Of a stretch of 30,612 bases of DNA, positions 7,536 through 16,169 are shown in pieces. A program made the translations under genes and the position numbers. Each line of letters opens with the position of its first letter. Position 1 is the first letter of the stretch. The notes under the pieces are model-generated. The model was not told the DNA's origin. It did not search any database and worked only from the letters and a program-made list of their open reading frames with translations. This DNA is from an uncultured Bifidobacteriaceae bacterium (GTDB taxonomy: Bacteria; Actinomycetota; Thermoleophilia; Miltoncostaeales; Miltoncostaeaceae): assembly GCA_964440285.1 (NCBI GenBank), contig CAYTRV010000004.1:1-30612 (forward strand), in the 5' to 3' direction.

Positions 7536-8804
7536 ATGTCGGGTGGTATCTGTGCCGATGACAACAGCATGCTCGGCTCGACGGGACGGTCCCGTCCAAC
7601 CCACGATGCGCTGATTCCGGAGAGCATTCCGGCCTGGAGGCCGACGCTCGATCGTCTTCGGCTGGTCGAGCGGGTTCAGCTCCTTGCGACGATCGTCCTC
7701 GGGGTGGGCGCCCTGCTCCTCGCCGTCGTCATCGCCGTACGAATCGTCGACTCGGTCGAGGACCACCGGCGGACGCTGGAGATCCAGAACGGCATCGAAT
7801 CGATCCGCTACGACGCGCGCGTCATGCAGGTCCGCCAGCTCGAGTCCCGGTACGCCGACACCGGGGGGAGCATCCCGCCCATCGTCGACGAGATCCAGAC
7901 CCTTCGCGACCGCGTCGCGGCTCTTCCCATGCTGTCCGCCCGCTCGAGCGAAGCCGAGCTCCGCCAGCGGCTACTCGACGACCTGGCCGCGTTCGTGGTG
8001 CTCTCGCGTTTCGCGCCCTCCGGGATCCGGGGCGGTACCGCGGAAAGCCGGCGGGGCTACGAGCTCGCCCGGCCCGCGATCAAGCAGATGGAGCAGAATC
8101 TCGACCGGTGGGTCGCCGTCGTGCGCGCGCACACGACGCGGGAACTCGACGCAACCGCGCCACACGTCGACCGTCTCGCGGCCATCCTCGTCGGCACCCT
8201 CGCGGCGCTCATCCTGTTGAGCGTCATCCTCGCCACGATCTTGCACCAGACACGACGGCGCCTGGCCGGCGAGCTCGCCAGCTCGACCGGAGAGCTGGAA
8301 CGTCTTTCCGGAACCGATGCGCTGACCGCCCTGGACAACCGGCGCGCCTTCCGCGCCTATGCGGATGACGCGGTCAGGGCAGCCGCCGCGCTGGAGACGC
8401 CCCTGTGCGTCGCGATCCTCGACATCGACCACTTCAAGACGATCAACGACGCGTACGGACACGACGTCGGCGACCGCACCCTCGTGCGGCTTGCGAAGCT
8501 GCTGACCGCAAGCGCCCCGTCGGGGCATCGCATCGCACGTCTCGGCGGCGAGGAGTTCGGCTGGCTCATGCCGCACACGGACGCACAGGCGGGGACCGAG
8601 TGGATTCAGCGCGCCCACGACGCTTTGGCGGCGAAACCGGTCGAGGGTGCCGGCGTGCTGACGTTCTCCTGCGGAATCGCCGAGCGCGGCGGATCCTCCG
8701 AAATCGAGCACCTCCTGCGCGAGGCCGACGACGCGCTCTACGAAGCCAAGGCCGCCGGCCGCAACCGAACGGTGGTCCGCGCGGCGGTCACGCAGCCCGT
8801 CTGA
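7536..8804 (+). CDS. Membrane-anchored diguanylate cyclase (two TM helices, extracytoplasmic sensor, GGDEF domain)
   Basis: DALTALDNRR, LDIDHFKTINDAYGHDVGD and RLGGEEF. Two hydrophobic segments flank a helical sensor region. Start codon uncertain. Confidence 0.9.
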   Translation: MSGGICADDNSMLGSTGRSRPTHDALIPESIPAWRPTLDRLRLVERVQLLATIVLGVGALLLAVVIAVRIVDSVEDHRRTLEIQNGIESIRYDARVMQVRQLESRYADTGGSIPPIVDEIQTLRDRVAALPMLSARSSEAELRQRLLDDLAAFVVLSRFAPSGIRGGTAESRRGYELARPAIKQMEQNLDRWVAVVRAHTTRELDATAPHVDRLAAILVGTLAALILLSVILATILHQTRRRLAGELASSTGELERLSGTDALTALDNRRAFRAYADDAVRAAAALETPLCVAILDIDHFKTINDAYGHDVGDRTLVRLAKLLTASAPSGHRIARLGGEEFGWLMPHTDAQAGTEWIQRAHDALAAKPVEGAGVLTFSCGIAERGGSSEIEHLLREADDALYEAKAAGRNRTVVRAAVTQPV

Positions 8805-8833
8805 TTCGACCGCCGCACTCGTGTGATGCGTGG

Positions 8834-8847
8834 CGAACGTATGTTCG
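8834..8847. promoter_or_regulatory. LexA SOS box (Gram-positive/actinobacterial CGAAC-N4-GTTCG)
   Basis: CGAAC-GTAT-GTTCG is a perfect palindromic match, immediately upstream of a TATACT -10 element of an Rv2578c-like gene. Confidence 0.85.
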
Positions 8848-8848
8848 C

Positions 8849-8854
8849 TATACT
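8849..8854 (+). promoter_or_regulatory. -10 element (TATACT), leaderless transcript
   Basis: TATACT lies 6 nt before the ATG at 8861; no SD. Confidence 0.65.
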
Positions 8855-8860
8855 GTGGAC

Positions 8861-9919
8861 ATGGCCGACTCCGGGGCCGAGCGACTCCGCTGGCGGTTGA
8901 CCGACGACGATGGCGGTCAACCCGAGCTGTTCGACACGGTCGAAACCGTGCCGGGCACGCGGGAGCTCGCCGGACTCGAGTTCCTCCACGTTCGGGCGAA
9001 GCGCGTCATCAATCGCGTACCGGAGGCGTCGCGCATGCCGTTCAGGCACACCGTGAACCCGTACCGCGGCTGCAGCCACGCCTGCGTGTACTGCTTCGCG
9101 CGACCGACGCACGAGTACCTCAACCTCGACCGCGGCCGCGACTTCGACACCCGCATCGTCGTCAAGGTCAACGCGGTGGAGCGGGTTGAGGCGGAGCTCG
9201 CAGCACCCCGCTGGGGGCGCGAGCTGGTGGCCCTGGGGACCAACACGGATCCCTACCAGCCGTGCGAGGGGCGCTACCGACTGACGGCGGGCATCGTGGC
9301 GGCGCTCACCGCAGCGGGGAACCCGTTCTCGATCGTGACGAAGTCGCCGCTCATCCTCCGCGATCTCGACGTACTCACCGAAGCGGCCGCCCGTGGCCTG
9401 GTACACGTCGACCTGTCCGTCGGGTGCCTCGACCGCGACGTGTGGCGTCTCACCGAGCCGAGCGCTCCGAGCCCCGAGCGGCGGCTGGAGACCGTTGCGG
9501 CACTCAACAGCGCAACGGTCCCCTGCGGTGTCCTCGTCGCGCCGATCCTGCCCGGCATTTCCGACGAGCAAGGGCAGCTCGACCGTCTCGTCCGGGCGTG
9601 CGTGGACGCCGGCGCCCAGTCGATCGCCGCGGTCGCGCTCCATCTTCGGCCAGGCGTGCGGGAGCATTACCTGGGCTGGCTCGCCGGCACCCGACCCGAC
9701 CTCCTGGCCGACCACCTCATCCGCTACCGCGGCGCGTACCTCACCGCCGACGCCCGGCGGGACCTGTCCGCCCGCATCCAGGAGCTGGCCGCCCACCACC
9801 GACGTCGCACGGGGAGCCTGGCCCGACCCACCCGGCACCCCGCGGCAATGCCCGGCCACCGGGCCGAGGCGCCCACTACTGGCCGCGGCGAGCCGCAGCA
9901 ACTGCGATTGATCGAGTAA
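8861..9919 (+). CDS. Rv2578c-family radical SAM protein (SplB-like, DNA-damage inducible)
   Basis: TVNPYRGCSHACVYCFARPTHEYL (CxxxCxxC), GTNTDPYQ and SIVTKS. Start is the ATG at 8861 after the SOS box and -10; the ORF-track start at 8405 is spurious. Confidence 0.9.
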   Translation: MADSGAERLRWRLTDDDGGQPELFDTVETVPGTRELAGLEFLHVRAKRVINRVPEASRMPFRHTVNPYRGCSHACVYCFARPTHEYLNLDRGRDFDTRIVVKVNAVERVEAELAAPRWGRELVALGTNTDPYQPCEGRYRLTAGIVAALTAAGNPFSIVTKSPLILRDLDVLTEAAARGLVHVDLSVGCLDRDVWRLTEPSAPSPERRLETVAALNSATVPCGVLVAPILPGISDEQGQLDRLVRACVDAGAQSIAAVALHLRPGVREHYLGWLAGTRPDLLADHLIRYRGAYLTADARRDLSARIQELAAHHRRRTGSLARPTRHPAAMPGHRAEAPTTGRGEPQQLRLIE

Positions 9920-10004: not shown

Positions 10005-10877
10005 ATGGAACTCGCCCTCCGTCTCATCCTGGCGGCCGTTCTCGTGTGGGCCGGCGCGACCAAGGTGCCGAACGGCGCCCGGTTCACCGATGCGCTCGGC
10101 GATCACGGCGTTCCCCGCAACGCACGCAGACCGCTCGCGGTCCTGCTCGGGTTGACCGAGATCGTGATCGCGGCGGTCGTTGCCTCAGGCGTCGCGAACC
10201 ACGCCGCAGGGATCGCCGTCGCCTGCCTCGGCGGGCTCTTCGCCGTCGCCCTCGCCAGGCTGCGACTCCGGGGCAAGCGGCGAACGAGCTGCGGGTGCTT
10301 TGGTGGGAAGCGCTCCGCGAACACGCTCCTGCTCACCGCGCGCGCCGCGGCGCTGGCCGGCCTGGGGTCGGTGCTCGCCCTCGGGGTCCCCGCGATGAAC
10401 ATCGCCCCGGGCGACTCCTGGCAGGCGGTGGCAATCGTGGGGCTGGCCGGGCTCGTCGGCGCCCTCGCCCTGGCCGTGCTCGCCCTCTACCGGCAGGTCG
10501 GCGTCCTGTCGCTCCGCCTCGGCCCGCGCGCCGCCCTCGAACTCGAGGACGAGGGCCCGCCGATCGGGCAGCCGGCGCCGCTTTTGCCAGAGATCACCCG
10601 TCGCGGATCGGAGCTCGTCGCTTTCGTCTCGCTCGACTGCCGCATGTGCATCGAGATCCTCCCCGGCCTCCGGGCCCTCGCACGAGAGGGCGTGCCGGTG
10701 CATTGGCTGCGTGAAGACAAGGACGGCGACGCCTTCGAACGCTGGGGCGTGCCGGGAACCCCGTTCGTGGTGCACCTGATCGACGGCGTGGTGCGCGCCA
10801 AGGGCCTCGTCAACACGCTCGAGCAGATCGACTGGGTCATCGACCTCGGCATCGAGCGGGATCGACTTGCGGCCTGA
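10005..10877 (+). CDS. MauE/DoxX membrane domain fused to a MauD-like thioredoxin-fold domain
   Basis: The N-half resembles MauE (AGATK...E...SCGCFGG). The C-half has GQPAP, CRMC (CxxC), GTP (cis-Pro loop) and AKGLVNT, as in MauD. Confidence 0.8.
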   Translation: MELALRLILAAVLVWAGATKVPNGARFTDALGDHGVPRNARRPLAVLLGLTEIVIAAVVASGVANHAAGIAVACLGGLFAVALARLRLRGKRRTSCGCFGGKRSANTLLLTARAAALAGLGSVLALGVPAMNIAPGDSWQAVAIVGLAGLVGALALAVLALYRQVGVLSLRLGPRAALELEDEGPPIGQPAPLLPEITRRGSELVAFVSLDCRMCIEILPGLRALAREGVPVHWLREDKDGDAFERWGVPGTPFVVHLIDGVVRAKGLVNTLEQIDWVIDLGIERDRLAA

Positions 10878-11484
10878 CCGGCGCTTCGACGACGCCGGCG
10901 AGCGATTCGCTCACCACCTCGCATCGTCGACAACCCGACGGTCGTTCATCGGAGCGCTCGGCGCGGCGCTGCTCGGACTGACCGCCGCCAAGGCCCACGG
11001 CGGCACGCAGCGACCCGTCCCCGGCACCGAGCGGATCGAGGGAGGGTGGTTCGGGTTCTGCGGCCATTACTGGACGACCGGTTCCTGCAGGGGGCCGTAC
11101 CGGCTGCCACGCGTCGATCGCGAAGGCAAGCCCCTGCGGCCGGAGGACGGCCGCCCGGTCGACGACGCCGGCCGGCTGATCAACGACCTCGGTCAGCCGA
11201 TCGACGACGCCGGCAACCGCCTCCTACAACCCAGCGGGCAGCCATTGCCGAGGACCCCGCGCACCCGGCTCTGCCAGGACGGGGTCCGCGACCGCTACAA
11301 GCTTGACGACGCGGTGCTGCAGGGATCGTGGTACCGGTGCTGCAACGGGCAGATCCGCAAACTCTGGGACTGCTGCTCGGCGAGCCGACGGAGGATCAAC
11401 GGCGACACGTCGGTCCGCGGCTACTGCTACGGCAACCGGAAGGTGTTCTGCGTCGTCTACCTCGACACCGGGGTGCCGTGTTGA
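10867..11484 (+). CDS. Tat-exported Cys-rich protein resembling the methylamine dehydrogenase light chain (MauA-like)
   Basis: TTG start overlapping the upstream gene; twin-arginine signal TRRSFI; 10 Cys in the mature part. GSWYRCC, WDCC, GYCYG and VFCVV align by eye to MauA ASWVASC, YRDCC, IWCFG and YHCTI. Flanked by mauE/D- and mauF-like genes. Confidence 0.62.
   Translation: MRPDRRFDDAGERFAHHLASSTTRRSFIGALGAALLGLTAAKAHGGTQRPVPGTERIEGGWFGFCGHYWTTGSCRGPYRLPRVDREGKPLRPEDGRPVDDAGRLINDLGQPIDDAGNRLLQPSGQPLPRTPRTRLCQDGVRDRYKLDDAVLQGSWYRCCNGQIRKLWDCCSASRRRINGDTSVRGYCYGNRKVFCVVYLDTGVPC
11113..11247 (+). repeat. About six degenerate tandem 7-8 aa repeats (DxxGxP[VIL]-like) within the MauA-like protein
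   Basis: VDREGKPL / PEDGRPV / DDAGRLI / NDLGQPI / DDAGNRL / QPSGQPL. Confidence 0.7.
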
Positions 11485-11541: not shown

Positions 11542-12918
11542 ATGCCGCTCGCCGAGCTTGGGATCGCAACGGCGGCGCTGATCGCAGGCGTGTCCGGAGC
11601 GTGGTCACCCTGAGGATTCGCAATGGTTGAGACCCTCACCCCCGCAGGCTGCGGGGGCCGGCGACGACAAGCGGCCGCGATGCTCCTGTTCTCACTCGGA
11701 GCCGTCGGGGCGGCGGCGGGGCTTGGCGGGCTCCTCGGCCTGACCGGTCGAGCCCTCCCCACCAGGTGGGCCCTCGCCCTGGCGGTGACGCTCGCGCTGC
11801 TCGGCGCGCTGCGCGAAGCCGGCATCGTGCGCGTCCCCCTCCCGGATCTGCGACGTCAGGTGCCGGAACGATGGCGACGCGACAAGCCACTCGCGCTGTG
11901 GAGCACCGGATACGGCGCGATCCTGGGTGCCGGCGTCGGGACCTTCCAGCCGGTCGCGACGTTCTGGGTCGCCTGTGCGGGCGCGGCGGCCCTCGGACGC
12001 CCGGCGGTCGCTGCCCTCTGCCTCGCACCGTTCGGCCTCGGGCGGGCGCTGATGGTCGCGTTCCCCGGCGACGATCCGCTGCACCGGCTGGCGGGAGCGC
12101 ACCGCATGCTGCGACCGGTCAACGCCGCGACTCTGCTCGCATTCGCCCTGCTCCTCGCGCCGTCGATCGCATTCGCGGGAGCTCCGGCCCTGCCGACCGG
12201 GCAGCGGGATCCCTCCGTCTCGAAGAACGTGATCGCGTACACCGACGCGATGGACGGCACGACCAACGTCGTGGTGCTGGAGAACGGCGCGGCACCCGTC
12301 GTGTTCTCGGGTGGGCGGCTCCCGGCGTTGAGCGGTGACGTGCTGGCCTACGTCGATGACGCCGGGATTCGCGTCGTCCTCTGGCGCACCGGCCAGGAGG
12401 TCGCCCGCGTCGGTGGAGGCGTCGACAAGCCCGCGCTGTCGGGTCCCCGGCTGGCGTTCGTGGAGACCATCGGCGCACGGAAGCGCCTCGTCGTGCGGAA
12501 CATTGGGACCGGCAGCGTCCGGGTGGTCGCGCGGGCCGGCCCCGCGGTGGACCTCGGGCGCCCGTCCCTTCTGGGGCAGCTCATCGCATGGCACGAGTCC
12601 GGCGGCGACCGCAACCGCCTGCTCCTGCGGTCGCTCACCGGCGGCCCGACACGGATCATCGCGAGCGGATCCCGCTCGGGCCTGCACGCGAATCCGACCC
12701 TGGCGCTCCCCTACATCGCCTGGATCGAGAGCCGTGCGGAGCATTCGGCGGTTCTGCTGCGCAAGCTGCCGAACGGGGCGGTGCGACGCGTCGCGAGCAC
12801 GAGCGGGCCCGTCTTCCACTACTGGAACACCGCGATCGAATCCGGGAGGGTTTGGGTGACCCGCTGGTCCCTCGGGTCGAATCGCTCGAGGATCCTGGCG
12901 TACCGCTGGGCACGATGA
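11542..12918 (+). CDS. MauF-like (DsbD/CcdA-related) membrane protein with probable selenocysteine at codon 24, fused to a C-terminal beta-propeller
   Basis: ATG at 11542 is in frame with ORF 11623-12918 through a single TGA (11611-11613): MPLAELGIATAALIAGVSGAWSP*GFAMVETLTP, matching the WSPCG-type motif of MauF-like proteins. Also RRQVPERW and YGAILGAGVGT. Six P-x-L-S-G-x-x-(L/I)-A-(Y/F/W)-like repeats occur in the C-half. Confidence 0.75.
11611..11657 (+). promoter_or_regulatory. In-frame UGA plus putative bacterial SECIS element
   Basis: UGA, an 11-nt spacer, then GGU-U(bulge)-GAG-ACC-CUC-ACC (11625-11640), the same spacing and bulged-U geometry as the E. coli fdhF SECIS. A second hairpin, CCCGCA-GGC-UGCGGG, follows immediately. 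Confidence 0.65.
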
Positions 12919-12942: not shown

Positions 12943-14031
12943 GTGGCCCGGTCGCTCACCACCCCGCTGTGCGACCTGCTCGGCATCAGGTACCCGATCC
13001 TCCTCGCGGGCATGGCCGGGGGACCGACGACGCCGGAGCTCGTCGCCGCGGTGAGCGACGCCGGCGGTCTCGGGACGTTCGGCGCCAACGGGATGCGCCT
13101 CGACACGCTCCGTGCCGCGGTGCGCCGGGCCCGGGAGCTCACGAACGCGCCGATCGCCGTGAACGTCCTGCTCGCGCCGCCGCGTGCGGCCACAAGCGAG
13201 CCTGAGACGCTGCGAGCCGCGCTGGCGCCCGTCCGGTCGGAGCTTGGCCTCGGTCCCGAGCCGCCCGCGGCTGCACCTCCGCCCACGCCGATCGAGTTGA
13301 TCGGGGCCGCGCTCGAGGAAGGCGCCACAGTCGTCAGCAGCGGCCTCGGCGACCCGGCGCCGCTCGTCCCGCTCGCGCGTGCCGCCGGGGCGCCGGTCCT
13401 TGCGATGGTGGCGACGGTCGCCGACGCGCGCCGGGCGGCGGCCTCCGGCGCCGACGTGATCGTCGCCCAGGGGGCGGAGGCCGGCGGACACCGATCGAAC
13501 TTCGAGGTGCCGGAATCGGGACCACCGGCGCTCGTGGGCACGATGGCGCTCGTCCCGCAGGTCGTGGCGGCCGTCGACGTGCCGGTCGTCGCGGCCGGCG
13601 GAATCATGAACGGCGGAGGCCTGGTCGCAGCCCTCGCACTCGGCGCCCAGGGCGCACAGCTCGGCACACGGTTCCTCCGGACGGTCGAGAGTGGGGCGAA
13701 CGCCGGCTACCGCGAGCGGGTCGGGCATGCGGCGGACACCGACACCGAGATCATCACGGCGTTCTCGGGACGCCCGGCGCGGGGCCTTCGCAACCGGATG
13801 CTCGACACCCTCGAGGCGGCGGGCTCGCCGTCAATCGGCTGGCCGCGTCAGGCCGCGGCCTGGGCCGACGTCCGCGAAGAATCCGATCGCCGCGGAACCG
13901 GCGACTTCATCTCGCTCTGGGCCGGCCAGGCGGCGGGCCTCGCCGGACCCGAGATCGGGGCCGGCGCCGTCGTGGACGAGATCATCGCCGAGGCGGCTGC
14001 GACGCTCACCCGGCTGAACCTCCTCCCGTAG
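12943..14031 (+). CDS. Nitronate monooxygenase family (YrpB-like FMN oxidoreductase)
   Basis: YPILLAGMAGG, VSDAGGLG, IVAQGAEAGGHR, VVAAGGI, AQLGTRF and LWAGQ. Confidence 0.9.
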   Translation: MARSLTTPLCDLLGIRYPILLAGMAGGPTTPELVAAVSDAGGLGTFGANGMRLDTLRAAVRRARELTNAPIAVNVLLAPPRAATSEPETLRAALAPVRSELGLGPEPPAAAPPPTPIELIGAALEEGATVVSSGLGDPAPLVPLARAAGAPVLAMVATVADARRAAASGADVIVAQGAEAGGHRSNFEVPESGPPALVGTMALVPQVVAAVDVPVVAAGGIMNGGGLVAALALGAQGAQLGTRFLRTVESGANAGYRERVGHAADTDTEIITAFSGRPARGLRNRMLDTLEAAGSPSIGWPRQAAAWADVREESDRRGTGDFISLWAGQAAGLAGPEIGAGAVVDEIIAEAAATLTRLNLLP

Positions 14032-14672: not shown

Positions 14673-16169
14673 CTACTCGACCAGCGAGGTGCCGGTCATC
14701 GCCGGGGAGGGGTCCCAGCCCACGAGCGAGCACAGCGTCGGCGCGACGTCTCCGAGCTTGCCCTCGCCGAGCCGCAAGCCGGGGCGATCGATCCAGAGCG
14801 GCACCGGGTTCGTGGTGTGCGCCGTGTTCGGGCTCCCGTCGGGTTCGAGCATCACCTCCGAGTTGCCGTGATCGGCCGTCACGGCGAGCAGCCCGCCGGC
14901 GCCGGCCACCGCGGCGCGGATGTCGCCCATGCACGCGTCCACGGCCTCGATGCCGGCGACGGCCGCCGGGATGACCCCGGTGTGCCCGACCATGTCGGCG
15001 TTCGCGAAGTTCACCACGACGAACGGGGGCGGCGCGGGCGCGGTGAGCCGCTCCACCAGCGCGCCGCGGACGCCGTCGGCGCTCATCTGCGGCGCCTGGT
15101 CGTAGGTCGCGACGTGCTGCGGGGACTGAACCAGGATCCGCTCCTCACCGTCGAACGGCTCCTCGCGGCCGCCGTTGAAGAAGTACGTGACATGCGCGTA
15201 CTTCTCCGTCTCGGCGACGTGCAGCTGGGTGAGGCCCATGCCGCTCACGTGCTCGGCGAGGCCCTGCCGGACATCCCGGGCCTCGAACGCGACCGGATAG
15301 GTCCACTCCGAGCGGTAGCGCGTCATCGTCAGGAGGACGGGTGTGGCCCGGTCACCCCGATCGAAGCCATCGAACGCCGGCTCGCCGAGCGCCTGGGTGA
15401 GCTGCCGCGCCCGATCCGGGCGGAAGTTCCAGTAGACGACTGCGTCGCCGTCGCGCACGCGACCGGCGGCGGGGTCGCCGACGACGAAGGGCTCGACGAA
15501 CTCGTCACTGACCCCGCGCGCGTAGCTCGCCCGGATGGCGTCAACGGCACGCTCGGCGTGTTCGCCCACACCGTGGACGATCGCGTCGTAGGCGCGTTTC
15601 GTACGGTCCCACCGCCTGTCGCGGTCCATTGCCCAGTAGCGACCGCAGACCGTCGCGACGGTGACACCGCCCCCCTCGAGCGCCTCTACGAACGCGAGCG
15701 CCGAGTCGGGGCGGGTGTCGCGCCCGTCGGTGAGCGCGTGGACGTAGACCCGCTCGACCCCTGATCGCTCTGCGAGGTCGAGGAGCGCCGCGAGATGGCG
15801 CTGGCTCGCGTGTACGCCCCCGTCGCCGATCAGGCCGATCAGGTGAAGGGCCGTTCGGCGCGCGACGTCCATCGACTGGGCGACGGCGGGGATGCGGTCG
15901 AACGATCCGTCGGCGATCGCCTCGTCGATCCGCACGAGCATCTGGGGCACGCGGCGCCCCGCTCCGAGGTTGAGGTGCCCGACCTCGGAGTTGCCCTGCT
16001 GGCCGTCCGGGAGGCCGACCGGGAGGCCGGAGGCGTGGAGTCGCGACGCCGACCCCTCACGGGCCAACGCGTCGAGGTTCGGGGTCGGGGCGAGGCTCAC
16101 CGCGTTGCCCGGCCCCGGCGGGGCGATCCCGAACCCGTCGATGACGACCAGTACGAGCGGACCGCTCAT
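14673..16169 (-). CDS. gpmI: 2,3-bisphosphoglycerate-independent phosphoglycerate mutase
   Basis: IDGFG, GNSEVGHLNLGAGR, GGVH, GRYWAMDRD, AETEKYAHVTYFFNGG, NADMVGHTG and ADHGNSE. Confidence 0.96.
   Translation of the reverse strand: MSGPLVLVVIDGFGIAPPGPGNAVSLAPTPNLDALAREGSASRLHASGLPVGLPDGQQGNSEVGHLNLGAGRRVPQMLVRIDEAIADGSFDRIPAVAQSMDVARRTALHLIGLIGDGGVHASQRHLAALLDLAERSGVERVYVHALTDGRDTRPDSALAFVEALEGGGVTVATVCGRYWAMDRDRRWDRTKRAYDAIVHGVGEHAERAVDAIRASYARGVSDEFVEPFVVGDPAAGRVRDGDAVVYWNFRPDRARQLTQALGEPAFDGFDRGDRATPVLLTMTRYRSEWTYPVAFEARDVRQGLAEHVSGMGLTQLHVAETEKYAHVTYFFNGGREEPFDGEERILVQSPQHVATYDQAPQMSADGVRGALVERLTAPAPPPFVVVNFANADMVGHTGVIPAAVAGIEAVDACMGDIRAAVAGAGGLLAVTADHGNSEVMLEPDGSPNTAHTTNPVPLWIDRPGLRLGEGKLGDVAPTLCSLVGWDPSPAMTGTSLVE

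What the first reader, a model, noticed from the sequence alone, without database searches (positions are those of the whole stretch)
10867..11484. MauA-like protein keeps the quinone Trp and catalytic Asp but has Tyr at the TTQ cross-link position
Seen: GSWYRCC (W155, 11329-11331), KLWDCC (W167/D168) and RGYCYG (Y186, 11422-11424). Known: in the MADH light chain TTQ forms from Trp57 (ASWVASC) cross-linked to Trp108 (IIWCFG), and Asp76 (RDCC) is catalytic. Inference from a by-eye alignment: W155 corresponds to Trp57, D168 to Asp76 and Y186 to Trp108. Canonical TTQ could then not form. Options are a Trp-Tyr cross-linked tryptophylquinone (not among the protein-derived quinones I know: TPQ, LTQ, TTQ, CTQ), a cross-link to W167 or a Cys, an uncross-linked quinone, or no cofactor at all.
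Basis: partly seen in the sequence, partly recalled or inferred. Interest (0 to 1): 0.78.

Follow-up and report, generated by a model that had tools for sequence, protein, structure and literature searches.

The report
Mau-like cysteine-rich protein module, Thermoleophilia
This gene encodes an unannotated, exported, cysteine-rich small protein that sits in a stripped-down relative of the methylamine dehydrogenase gene cluster in soil and sediment actinobacteria; it keeps an invariant Trp, Asp and Tyr, but nothing here shows that they form a quinone cofactor.

Summary
ORF 10867-11484 (+) encodes 205 aa with GSWYRCC, KLWDCC and RGYCYG at the stated codons. W155, D168 and Y186 are invariant or nearly so in 146 relatives; W167 is variable.

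The MauA link is real for the presequence (residues 1-39; hhalign E 8.5e-8) and for the neighbours:
- Upstream is a MauE-MauD fusion.
- Downstream is a MauF-like membrane domain (hhalign E 2.9e-10) fused to a TolB-like beta-propeller.
- This three-gene module is kept in 82-83 of 84 loci and occurs in 285 species-level genomes, all those listed being Thermoleophilia or other Actinomycetota.

The mature domain shows no significant similarity to MADH or AADH light chains:
- Pfam PF02975 gives no hit.
- hhalign scores 15.8 against 14.2 for a reversed control.
- An alternative register puts MauA Trp108 on F194 instead of Y186.

No MauG or other conserved cofactor-maturation enzyme lies in any locus.

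Best reading: a new MADH-like light-subunit/propeller module with its own disulfide-forming machinery. Whether it carries a cofactor is open.

The parts
10005..10877 (+). MauE-MauD fusion protein (290 aa). The N-terminal half is a MauE membrane domain. The C-terminal half is a membrane-anchored thioredoxin-like MauD domain. It overlaps the small-protein gene by 11 nt.
   Evidence: Pfam PF07291 MauE E 2.4e-18, residues 3-126. BLASTP to Paracoccus MauE E 1e-6 and to MauD E 5e-13, 31% over 165 aa. Present upstream in 82/84 loci.
10290..10298 (+). CGC (C96-G97-C98) active-site-type CXC motif of the MauE domain.
   Evidence: Aligned with the CGCF of Paracoccus MauE. The CXC motif is described as the MauE active site in bioRxiv 10.64898/2026.03.05.709764.
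10638..10649 (+). CRMC (C212-C215) CXXC motif of the MauD-like thioredoxin domain.
   Evidence: Aligned with the CPVC of Paracoccus MauD.
10867..11484 (+). The finding: a 205-aa exported protein with 10 Cys, member of an unannotated family.
10867..10995 (+). MauA-type long presequence (residues 1-43): an N-terminal helix, the twin-arginine motif TTRRSFIG (R24-R25 at 10936-10941) and a hydrophobic stretch. Cleavage after AKA or AHG is my inference.
   Evidence: TIGR02659 positions 1-39, E 3.8e-5, in 10/38 members. BLASTP to MauA residues 1-37, E 3e-6. hhalign prob 94%, E 8.5e-8. Weak Tat-signal hits in some members.
11056..11097 (+). Invariant N-terminal motif FCGHYWTTGSC of the mature protein (residues 64-74; C65, H67, C74), up to residue 77.
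   Evidence: Invariant columns.
11098..11271 (+). Central region (residues 78-135) of short beta-hairpin repeats (D-x-x-G-x-P-[ILV]). This is the best-predicted part of the model and has no counterpart in MauA.
   Evidence: pLDDT 93-98. The same stretch matches 15-22 times in giant repeat proteins that carry unrelated domains.
11272..11481 (+). C-terminal Cys-rich domain (residues 136-205): a helix at 137-144, a hairpin at 150-159/162-171, a loop containing RINGD and GYC, and a strand at 192-204. It holds 8 of the 10 Cys.
   Evidence: DSSP of the models; invariant columns.
11329..11331 (+). W155 (TGG), W in 145/146 relatives.
11368..11370 (+). D168 (GAC), invariant, directly before C169-C170.
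11422..11424 (+). Y186 (TAC), invariant, directly before C187.
11623..12192 (+). MauF-like polytopic membrane domain (residues 1-190) of the downstream protein. It is absent in some genomes, where the propeller has only a signal peptide.
   Evidence: BLASTP to Paracoccus MauF E 8e-7. hhalign prob 96.8%, E 2.9e-10 over 134 columns. Weak DsbD_2 hit in a homologue. Absent in L001, L023, L028, L030, L031, L068 and L072.
12193..12918 (+). TolB-like beta-propeller domain (about 240 aa, about six P-x-L-x-G-x-x-[IL]-A-[YW] repeats). This is the candidate partner of the small protein.
   Evidence: Profile against PDB: TolB E 2e-5. Repeats visible in alignment A4. Present downstream in 83/84 loci. Not specifically similar to MauB (hhalign E 0.12).

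Best explanation
ORF 10867-11484 encodes the small, exported, disulfide-rich component of a three-gene mau-derived module found in Thermoleophilia.

Proposed mechanism:
1. The protein is made with a MauA-type twin-arginine presequence and is exported (inferred from the presequence).
2. Its 10 cysteines are oxidised to five disulfides by the dedicated MauE-MauD fusion encoded immediately upstream. The MauE CXC motif generates the disulfide and the MauD CXXC domain passes it on (inferred by homology; MauE function was shown in other bacteria).
3. The folded protein docks on the extracytoplasmic TolB-like beta-propeller encoded downstream. In most genomes that propeller is held at the membrane by a MauF-like domain. 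This would mirror the MADH light-chain/propeller heavy-chain arrangement (inferred from strict gene linkage only).
4. W155 and D168 probably lie on the same face of one beta-hairpin. Together with Y186, which is tied in by the neighbouring C187, they mark the likely functional site.

The mature domain is not a recognisable MADH light chain, and canonical TTQ cannot be made because there is no second Trp and no MauG. Whether the site is turned into a redox cofactor by another route or is a binding or structural site is unresolved. I put about 20% on any Trp- or Tyr-derived cofactor.
For: Homology of four module components to mau proteins:
- MauA presequence.
- MauE.
- MauD.
- MauF.

Module conservation: MauE-Trx upstream in 82/84 loci and the propeller protein downstream in 83/84 loci, while all other neighbours vary. 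The first two genes overlap by 11 nt, and no terminator-like site lies between the genes.

The 10 Cys are conserved throughout: all 10 are invariant in the 38 full-length sequences, and the eight C-terminal Cys are invariant in the 127-sequence set that includes fragments.

MauE acts as a DsbB-like disulfide generator, and 8.2% of MauE entries are fused to a thioredoxin-fold protein (bioRxiv 10.64898/2026.03.05.709764).

The propeller is TolB-like. It is extracytoplasmic by topology: it follows the last membrane segment, or has its own signal peptide in genomes that lack the MauF domain.

W155, D168 and Y186 are invariant. The model is confident (pLDDT 85.8, pTM 0.76) with a hairpin at 150-159/162-171.
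Against: No experiment and no complex model supports the pairing of the small protein with the propeller; it is inferred from gene linkage. The propeller is about 240 aa and TolB-like, not the seven-bladed MauB type. The mature domain has no detectable relation to MauA, so the presequence and accessory genes could have been recruited for an unrelated cargo. The same-face geometry of W155 and D168 is deduced from predicted secondary structure, not from coordinates.
Confidence: 0.55

Rival explanations
1. The protein is a true, diverged MADH-type light chain whose Trp57 equivalent (W155) becomes a tryptophylquinone cross-linked to Tyr186 instead of a second Trp, with D168 as the catalytic base. 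That would be a new Trp-Tyr quinone cofactor in an amine dehydrogenase.
For: W155, D168 and Y186 are invariant. The mau-derived context includes MauE, MauD, MauF and the presequence. The only mature-domain segment that hhalign aligns is ...DCC... against ...RDCC.... Y186-C187 mimics W108-C109, which in MADH is tied to C78 of the DCC motif (disulfide pattern recalled from memory, not tested here). The W-to-D spacing of 13 against 19 residues fits a hairpin shortened by three residues on each arm (inference). The first hydroxylation of Trp57 in preMADH does not depend on MauG (7-OH-Trp substrate described in PMC11951088).
Confidence: 0.07
2. The small protein is non-catalytic. It is a disulfide-stabilised extracytoplasmic ligand, adaptor or envelope component that binds the TolB-like propeller. 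W155, D168, Y186 and the RINGD loop serve packing, partner binding or metal (for example Ca2+) binding, and there is no cofactor.
For: No maturation enzyme and no electron acceptor is encoded in the conserved module. The fold is novel, with a large beta-hairpin-repeat region that has no counterpart in quinoprotein light chains. TolB-type propellers are typically binding scaffolds (general knowledge). Many other residues are equally invariant (H67, R82, D84, D99, R132, R134, R157, R164, R176, N178, D180, Y198), so invariance alone does not single out a cofactor site. MauE is a general disulfide-forming protein that mostly occurs without MauA.
Against: Keeping the specific MauA-type presequence together with MauF, neither of which is known outside MADH biogenesis, is not required for a simple binding protein. 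An invariant Trp and Asp on one hairpin next to vicinal cysteines is reminiscent of the TTQ site.
Confidence: 0.3
3. The gene is the precursor of a cysteine-rich, ribosomally made and post-translationally processed secreted product. MauE-MauD would act as tailoring enzymes, as proposed for Streptomyces clusters.
For: MauE/MauD homologues sit next to precursors with at least 8 Cys in Streptomyces candidate RiPP clusters (PMC7794033).
Against: The product is a 160-aa domain conserved along its whole length and modelled with high confidence. The module has no conserved protease, transporter or further tailoring enzyme. It carries a Tat-type presequence, not a RiPP leader.
Confidence: 0.05

Closest known systems
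Methylamine / aromatic amine dehydrogenase light chain (MauA; Pfam PF02975, TIGR02659; TTQ cofactor)
   Same: A homologous long twin-arginine presequence. A small, exported, Cys-rich protein encoded directly after MauE and MauD homologues. Motifs S-W...C, D-C-C and aromatic-C in the same order. A beta-propeller protein encoded in the same module.
   Different: The mature domain has no significant sequence or fold similarity. It has 10 Cys, not 12. A 58-residue beta-hairpin-repeat region is inserted. There is no second Trp at the candidate cross-link site (Tyr or Phe, depending on register). The module lacks MauG, MauB (PF06433), amicyanin, MauJ, MauM and MauN.
mau accessory proteins MauE, MauD and MauF of Paracoccus (locus L085)
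   Same: All three have clear homologues here (E 1e-6, 5e-13 and 2.9e-10). The CXC motif of MauE and the CXXC motif of MauD are kept.
   Different: MauE and MauD are fused into one protein. MauF is fused to a TolB-like propeller and is missing in some genomes. The gene order is ED-A-F/propeller instead of F-B-E-D-A.
MauE as a DsbB-like disulfide-forming protein, including MauE-thioredoxin fusions (bioRxiv 10.64898/2026.03.05.709764)
   Same: A MauE with a CXC motif fused to a thioredoxin-fold CXXC domain, in an organism without canonical MauA.
   Different: Here the fusion is strictly linked to one specific Cys-rich client that carries the MauA presequence. This suggests a dedicated role, not a general oxidative-folding role.
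Quinohemoprotein amine dehydrogenase gamma subunit (CTQ) with its beta-propeller subunit
   Same: The same theme: a small, heavily cross-linked subunit carrying a modified Trp, sitting on a beta-propeller subunit.
   Different: No sequence match. There are no QhpD, QhpE or QhpG equivalents: the radical SAM gene at 8405-9919 is a neighbour in only 10/84 loci. There is no heme subunit.
Streptomyces MauE/MauD clusters with Cys-rich precursors (decRiPPter candidates, PMC7794033)
   Same: Actinobacterial MauE/MauD homologues next to a gene for a Cys-rich product, outside methylamine metabolism.
   Different: The product here is a 160-aa folded domain with a Tat presequence and a propeller partner. 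The family is restricted to Thermoleophilia.

Membership tests
MADH/AADH light chain (PF02975 / TIGR02659) | Full-length match to the family model above the curated cut-off | tested here: not met
   PF02975: no hit in the window protein or in 38 relatives even at E<=10. TIGR02659: 23.6 bits against a cut-off of 196.85, positions 1-39 only. PDB sequence and profile searches find no MADH or AADH chain.
MADH/AADH light chain (PF02975 / TIGR02659) | MauA-type long twin-arginine presequence | tested here: met
   BLASTP E 3e-6. hhalign prob 94%, E 8.5e-8. 10/38 members hit TIGR02659 positions 1-39.
MADH/AADH light chain (PF02975 / TIGR02659) | Homologous mature domain (profile-profile) | tested here: not met
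   hhalign mature against mature: E 0.05-0.08, prob about 1%, score 15.8 against 14.2 for the reversed control.
MADH/AADH light chain (PF02975 / TIGR02659) | Same fold as the solved light chains | tested here: not met
MADH/AADH light chain (PF02975 / TIGR02659) | Two Trp residues that form TTQ (Trp57 and Trp108 equivalents) | tested here: not met
   Only one invariant Trp (W155). The candidate second position is Y186 (by-eye register) or F194 (hhalign register). W167 is variable.
MADH/AADH light chain (PF02975 / TIGR02659) | Twelve Cys forming six disulfides | tested here: not met
   Ten Cys: all 10 invariant in 38 full-length sequences, and the eight C-terminal ones invariant in the 127-sequence set that includes fragments. 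Connectivity is not testable here.
mau gene cluster (TTQ biogenesis system) | MauG di-heme enzyme encoded with the light chain | tested here: not met
   No coding-like ORF with two or more CxxCH motifs in 84 loci (flanks of up to 6-8 kb). The only CxxCH motifs in the 30.6-kb window lie in non-coding frames. The canonical cluster L085 does have CCP_MauG. Presence elsewhere in these genomes was not tested.
mau gene cluster (TTQ biogenesis system) | MauB heavy chain (PF06433) encoded with the light chain | tested here: not met
   The downstream propeller has no Pfam hit. It matches TolB. hhalign against MauB gives E 0.12.
mau gene cluster (TTQ biogenesis system) | MauE, MauD and MauF accessory genes adjacent | tested here: met
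   Conserved in 82-83 of 84 loci; the MauF domain is present in 76.
Dedicated MauE/thioredoxin oxidative-folding pair with a Cys-rich client | MauE with a CXC motif, a thioredoxin-fold CXXC partner, and an exported Cys-rich protein in the same operon | tested here: met
   CGC at residues 96-98 and CRMC at 212-215. A client with 10 conserved Cys and a Tat presequence whose gene overlaps the fusion gene by 11 nt.
CTQ quinoproteins (QHNDH gamma subunit) | Radical SAM QhpD and flavoprotein QhpG encoded with the small subunit | tested here: not met
   The radical SAM gene (8405-9919) is a neighbour in only 10/84 loci and the NMO flavoprotein in 15/84, in both cases only among close relatives.
Any quinone-bearing protein | Covalently modified Trp or Tyr in the mature protein | not testable with these tools
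   Needs mass spectrometry, spectroscopy or a structure of the native protein.

The most novel reading that the evidence does not exclude
The module makes a MauG-independent, protein-derived redox cofactor of a new chemical type, either a Trp155-derived quinone cross-linked to Tyr186 or a Tyr186-derived quinone. The cofactor would sit in a light subunit with a new fold, docked on a membrane-tethered six-bladed propeller. That would be a third lineage of tryptophylquinone-type dehydrogenases, confined to Thermoleophilia.
Probability: 0.1. Interest if true: 0.9.

Novelty: new variant of a known kind. Interest (0 to 1): 0.58.

Why it matters
If the module is a working enzyme, it would extend quinoprotein amine-dehydrogenase-like systems into Gram-positive-type Thermoleophilia, which are abundant in soils and sediments but little studied. 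It would also show a route to a protein-derived cofactor that needs no MauG. That bears on the still unexplained first, MauG-independent hydroxylation step of TTQ biogenesis.

Even if no cofactor exists, three results stand:
- The module defines an unannotated protein family with a predicted fold that has no PDB neighbour. It has 741 clusters at E<=1e-3, against 124 clusters for canonical MauA in the same database, and no Pfam model.
- It shows that the odd MauA presequence, MauE/MauD and MauF travel together as an export-and-oxidative-folding kit that can serve a different cargo.
- It gives MauF, whose function is unknown, a second genomic context and a fusion partner.

A cultured carrier, Miltoncostaea marina, makes the question directly testable.

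Tried and rejected
- **W167 as cross-link partner:** rejected. The position is W in only 45/146 relatives.
- **Radical SAM gene (8405-9919) and NMO flavoprotein (12943-14031) as maturation enzymes:** rejected as module members. They are neighbours in only 10 and 15 of 84 loci.
- **MauG in the neighbourhood:** none found.
- **Sequence routes to MauA for the mature domain:** Pfam, NCBIfam, PDB phmmer and hmmsearch, and hhalign run locally, globally, with the 58-residue insertion excised and with the C-terminal domain alone. All are non-significant and at the level of a reversed control.
- **Propeller as a MauB homologue:** not supported.
- **Database 'fusion' proteins of MauE-Trx with the small protein:** the case examined (L069) is a stop-free out-of-frame artefact of high-GC DNA, not a real fusion. 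P0123 may be a genuine fusion but was not checked.
- **Giant proteins that match residues 82-130 many times:** they share only a generic short hairpin repeat and carry unrelated domains.
- **W155-Y186 distance and disulfide connectivity:** could not be measured because the tools do not expose model coordinates.
Full report
**Observation.** The DNA reads TGG at 11329-11331 (W155), TGG-GAC at 11365-11370 (W167-D168) and TAC at 11422-11424 (Y186). The start is a TTG that overlaps the stop of the upstream gene by 11 nt. It agrees with the N-termini of homologues. GC3 is 0.86 in a 71% GC window, so this is a real gene.

**Family and conservation.**
- The protein has 741 relatives at E<=1e-3 in the 5.8-billion-protein collection. 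All are 'hypothetical' and none has a Pfam domain.
- An exhaustive profile search of 1.84 billion cluster representatives finds only 302, many of them fragments.
- In one-genome-per-species GTDB contigs, 285 stretches encode a relative. All 80 listed are Actinomycetota, mostly labelled Thermoleophilia, Miltoncostaeaceae, Gaiellaceae or Gaiellales. One cultured carrier is Miltoncostaea marina.
- All 10 Cys are invariant in 38 full-length sequences. The eight C-terminal Cys are invariant in a 127-sequence set that includes fragments.
- In 146 sequences covering the C-terminal region, W155 is W in 145, D168 is D in 146 and Y186 is Y in 146. W167 is W in only 45. F194, the residue before C195, is F in 137 and Y in 8.

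**Is it MauA-like? The presequence is.**
- NCBIfam TIGR02659 (MADH small subunit) matches residues 1-39 to model positions 1-39, at 23.6 bits against a cut-off of 196.85. It does so in 10 of 38 relatives.
- BLASTP against the Paracoccus versutus MauA precursor aligns residues 1-37 with E 3e-6. I recalled that sequence from memory, and it proved identical to PDB 3c75_L.
- Profile-profile comparison of the two families gives prob 94%, E 8.5e-8 for this segment.
- This is the unusual long MauA leader: an N-terminal helix followed by a twin-arginine motif (TTRRSFIG here).

**The mature domain is not detectably MauA-like.**
- Pfam PF02975 gives no hit in any of 38 members, even at E<=10.
- PDB sequence and profile searches return no MADH or AADH chain.
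- hhalign of mature against mature aligns only IRKLWDCCSASR with LIAYRDCCGYNV (E 0.078, prob 0.7%).
- Removing the 58-residue central insertion, or using only the C-terminal domain, gives scores of 15.6-15.8. Reversed MauA columns give 14.2-14.6.
- When that alignment is extended, MauA Trp57 falls on the family's 'DWV' column near residue 139, and Trp108 falls on F194 (VFCV against IWCF).

**Structure.**
- A first model of the whole protein had pLDDT 73.7. A second model of residues 44-205 with 127 sequences had pLDDT 85.8 and pTM 0.76.
- The predicted elements are: a poorly ordered N-terminus; a very confident beta-hairpin-repeat region (residues about 78-135); a helix at 137-144; a hairpin at 150-159/162-171; a loop with RINGD and GYC; and a strand at 192-204.
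- Foldseek against the PDB found nothing better than E 0.49 and 0.65, and no MADH or AADH light chain in the top 50.
- As far as these tools can tell, the fold has no solved neighbour.

**Inference from secondary structure only.**
- With a two-residue turn at N160-G161, W155 pairs with L166 and G153 pairs with D168. W155 and D168 would then point to the same face, two rungs apart.
- The W-to-D spacing in MauA is 19 against 13 here, a difference of exactly three residues per arm. The same geometry is therefore possible in MADH if its turn is at T65-D66.
- I could not check either point against coordinates.

**Genomic context.** This is the strongest result.
- The upstream gene (10005-10877) is a fusion. 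Residues 3-126 are MauE (Pfam E 2.4e-18; BLASTP to Paracoccus MauE E 1e-6, including the CGCF motif). Residues about 154-280 are MauD (E 5e-13, with the membrane anchor, a CXXC motif and the ...RAKGL.NT... motif).
- The downstream gene (11623-12918) has an N-terminal polytopic domain homologous to MauF (BLASTP E 8e-7; hhalign prob 96.8%, E 2.9e-10 over 134 columns). Its C-terminal domain of about 240 aa has about six repeats and matches TolB propellers in the PDB (E 2e-5). It does not specifically match MauB.
- In 84 loci, MauE-Trx is upstream in 82 and the propeller protein is downstream in 83. Every other neighbour varies. The MauF domain is missing in some genomes, where the propeller has its own signal peptide.
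- A canonical Paracoccus cluster fetched for comparison reads MauF, MauB, MauE, MauD, MauA, amicyanin, MauJ, MauG, MauM, MauN.
- The Thermoleophilia module therefore retains E, D, F and an A-like gene, and has a propeller where B would be. It lacks G, C, J, M and N. No coding-like ORF with two heme-binding motifs exists in any of the 84 loci or in the window.

**Mechanism.**
- Shown by homology: MauE is a DsbB-like disulfide generator with a CXC active site, and it is often fused to a thioredoxin-fold protein (bioRxiv 10.64898/2026.03.05.709764).
- Inferred: the small protein is exported through its Tat-type MauA presequence, receives five disulfides from the dedicated MauE-MauD fusion, and binds the membrane-tethered propeller. 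This parallels the MADH light-chain/propeller heavy-chain arrangement.
- W155, D168 and Y186 mark the probable functional site.
- Canonical TTQ cannot form, because there is no second Trp and no MauG. The CTQ routes are not encoded either: the radical SAM and flavoprotein neighbours of the window occur in only 10 and 15 of 84 loci.
- A cofactor would have to arise by self-processing or by an enzyme encoded elsewhere. I put about 20% on any Trp- or Tyr-derived cofactor and about 7% on the specific Trp-Tyr quinone.
- The main rival (about 30%) is a non-catalytic, disulfide-stabilised partner of the TolB-like propeller. A RiPP-like precursor, as proposed for Streptomyces MauE/MauD clusters (PMC7794033), is unlikely for a 160-aa, fully conserved and confidently folded domain.

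**Comparison with what is known.**
- The known cross-linked quinone cofactors are TTQ, CTQ, LTQ, TPQ and PQQ. A Tyr-Trp link is known only in the KatG Met-Tyr-Trp adduct (PMC11951088).
- I found no paper describing this family or module.
- The protein fails the membership tests for the MADH light-chain family on every feature of the mature domain, so it should not be annotated as MauA.
- It is best described as a new variant of the mau system: the same export and oxidative-folding kit with a propeller partner, a different cargo domain, and no MauG.

**Verdict.** Interest is moderate to high because the module is conserved and unannotated, occurs in a cultured organism, and poses a sharp question that mass spectrometry could answer.

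Noticed in passing
window 11098-11271 (residues 78-135 of the small protein): The central region is made of short D-x-x-G-x-P-[ILV] hairpin repeats. The same stretch matches 15-22 times in giant proteins (for example P0135, 3819 aa). The three scanned with Pfam (P0139, P0267, P0228) carry unrelated domains such as I/LWEQ plus DUF3659, or TrbI plus flagellar-hook-like segments. It is the most confidently modelled part (pLDDT 93-98).
   Followed up: partly
window 11623-12918; L001 8672-9463, L023, L028, L030, L031, L068, L072: The downstream protein is a MauF-like membrane domain fused to a TolB-like propeller. In Miltoncostaea marina and several MAGs the MauF domain is missing and the propeller has only a signal peptide. 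MauF has no assigned function, so this fusion may be a clue to it.
   Followed up: partly
window 8405-9919 (+) and 12943-14031 (+): A radical SAM protein and a nitronate monooxygenase-family flavoprotein flank the module. They would look like attractive maturation enzymes, but they are neighbours in only 10 and 15 of 84 loci, all close relatives.
   Followed up: yes
L069 5263-6558; database proteins P0123, P0143, P0145, P0149 and others: Many 'long' database relatives (330-500 aa) look like MauE-Trx/small-protein fusions. The one inspected (L069) is a stop-free out-of-frame reading of high-GC DNA. P0123 (453 aa) reads in frame throughout and might be a real fusion.
   Followed up: partly
L062 and L075 (both from MAG CAWEGW01, MFD04850.bin.2.94): Two separate contigs of one MAG each carry the module. 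This could be a second copy or an assembly or binning duplicate.
   Followed up: no
(database counts): In the same word-indexed protein collection, this unannotated family has more 90%-identity clusters (741) than canonical MauA (124).
   Followed up: no
window 7536-8804 (+); 14673-16169 (-): A GGDEF diguanylate cyclase with an N-terminal membrane/sensor region lies upstream. Downstream on the minus strand, the ORF at 14673-16169 corresponds by position to the phosphoglycerate mutase gene that starts a block of glycolytic genes (iPGM, TIM, PGK, GAPDH) in the related locus L002; the window ORFs themselves were not scanned. Both look unrelated to the module.
   Followed up: no
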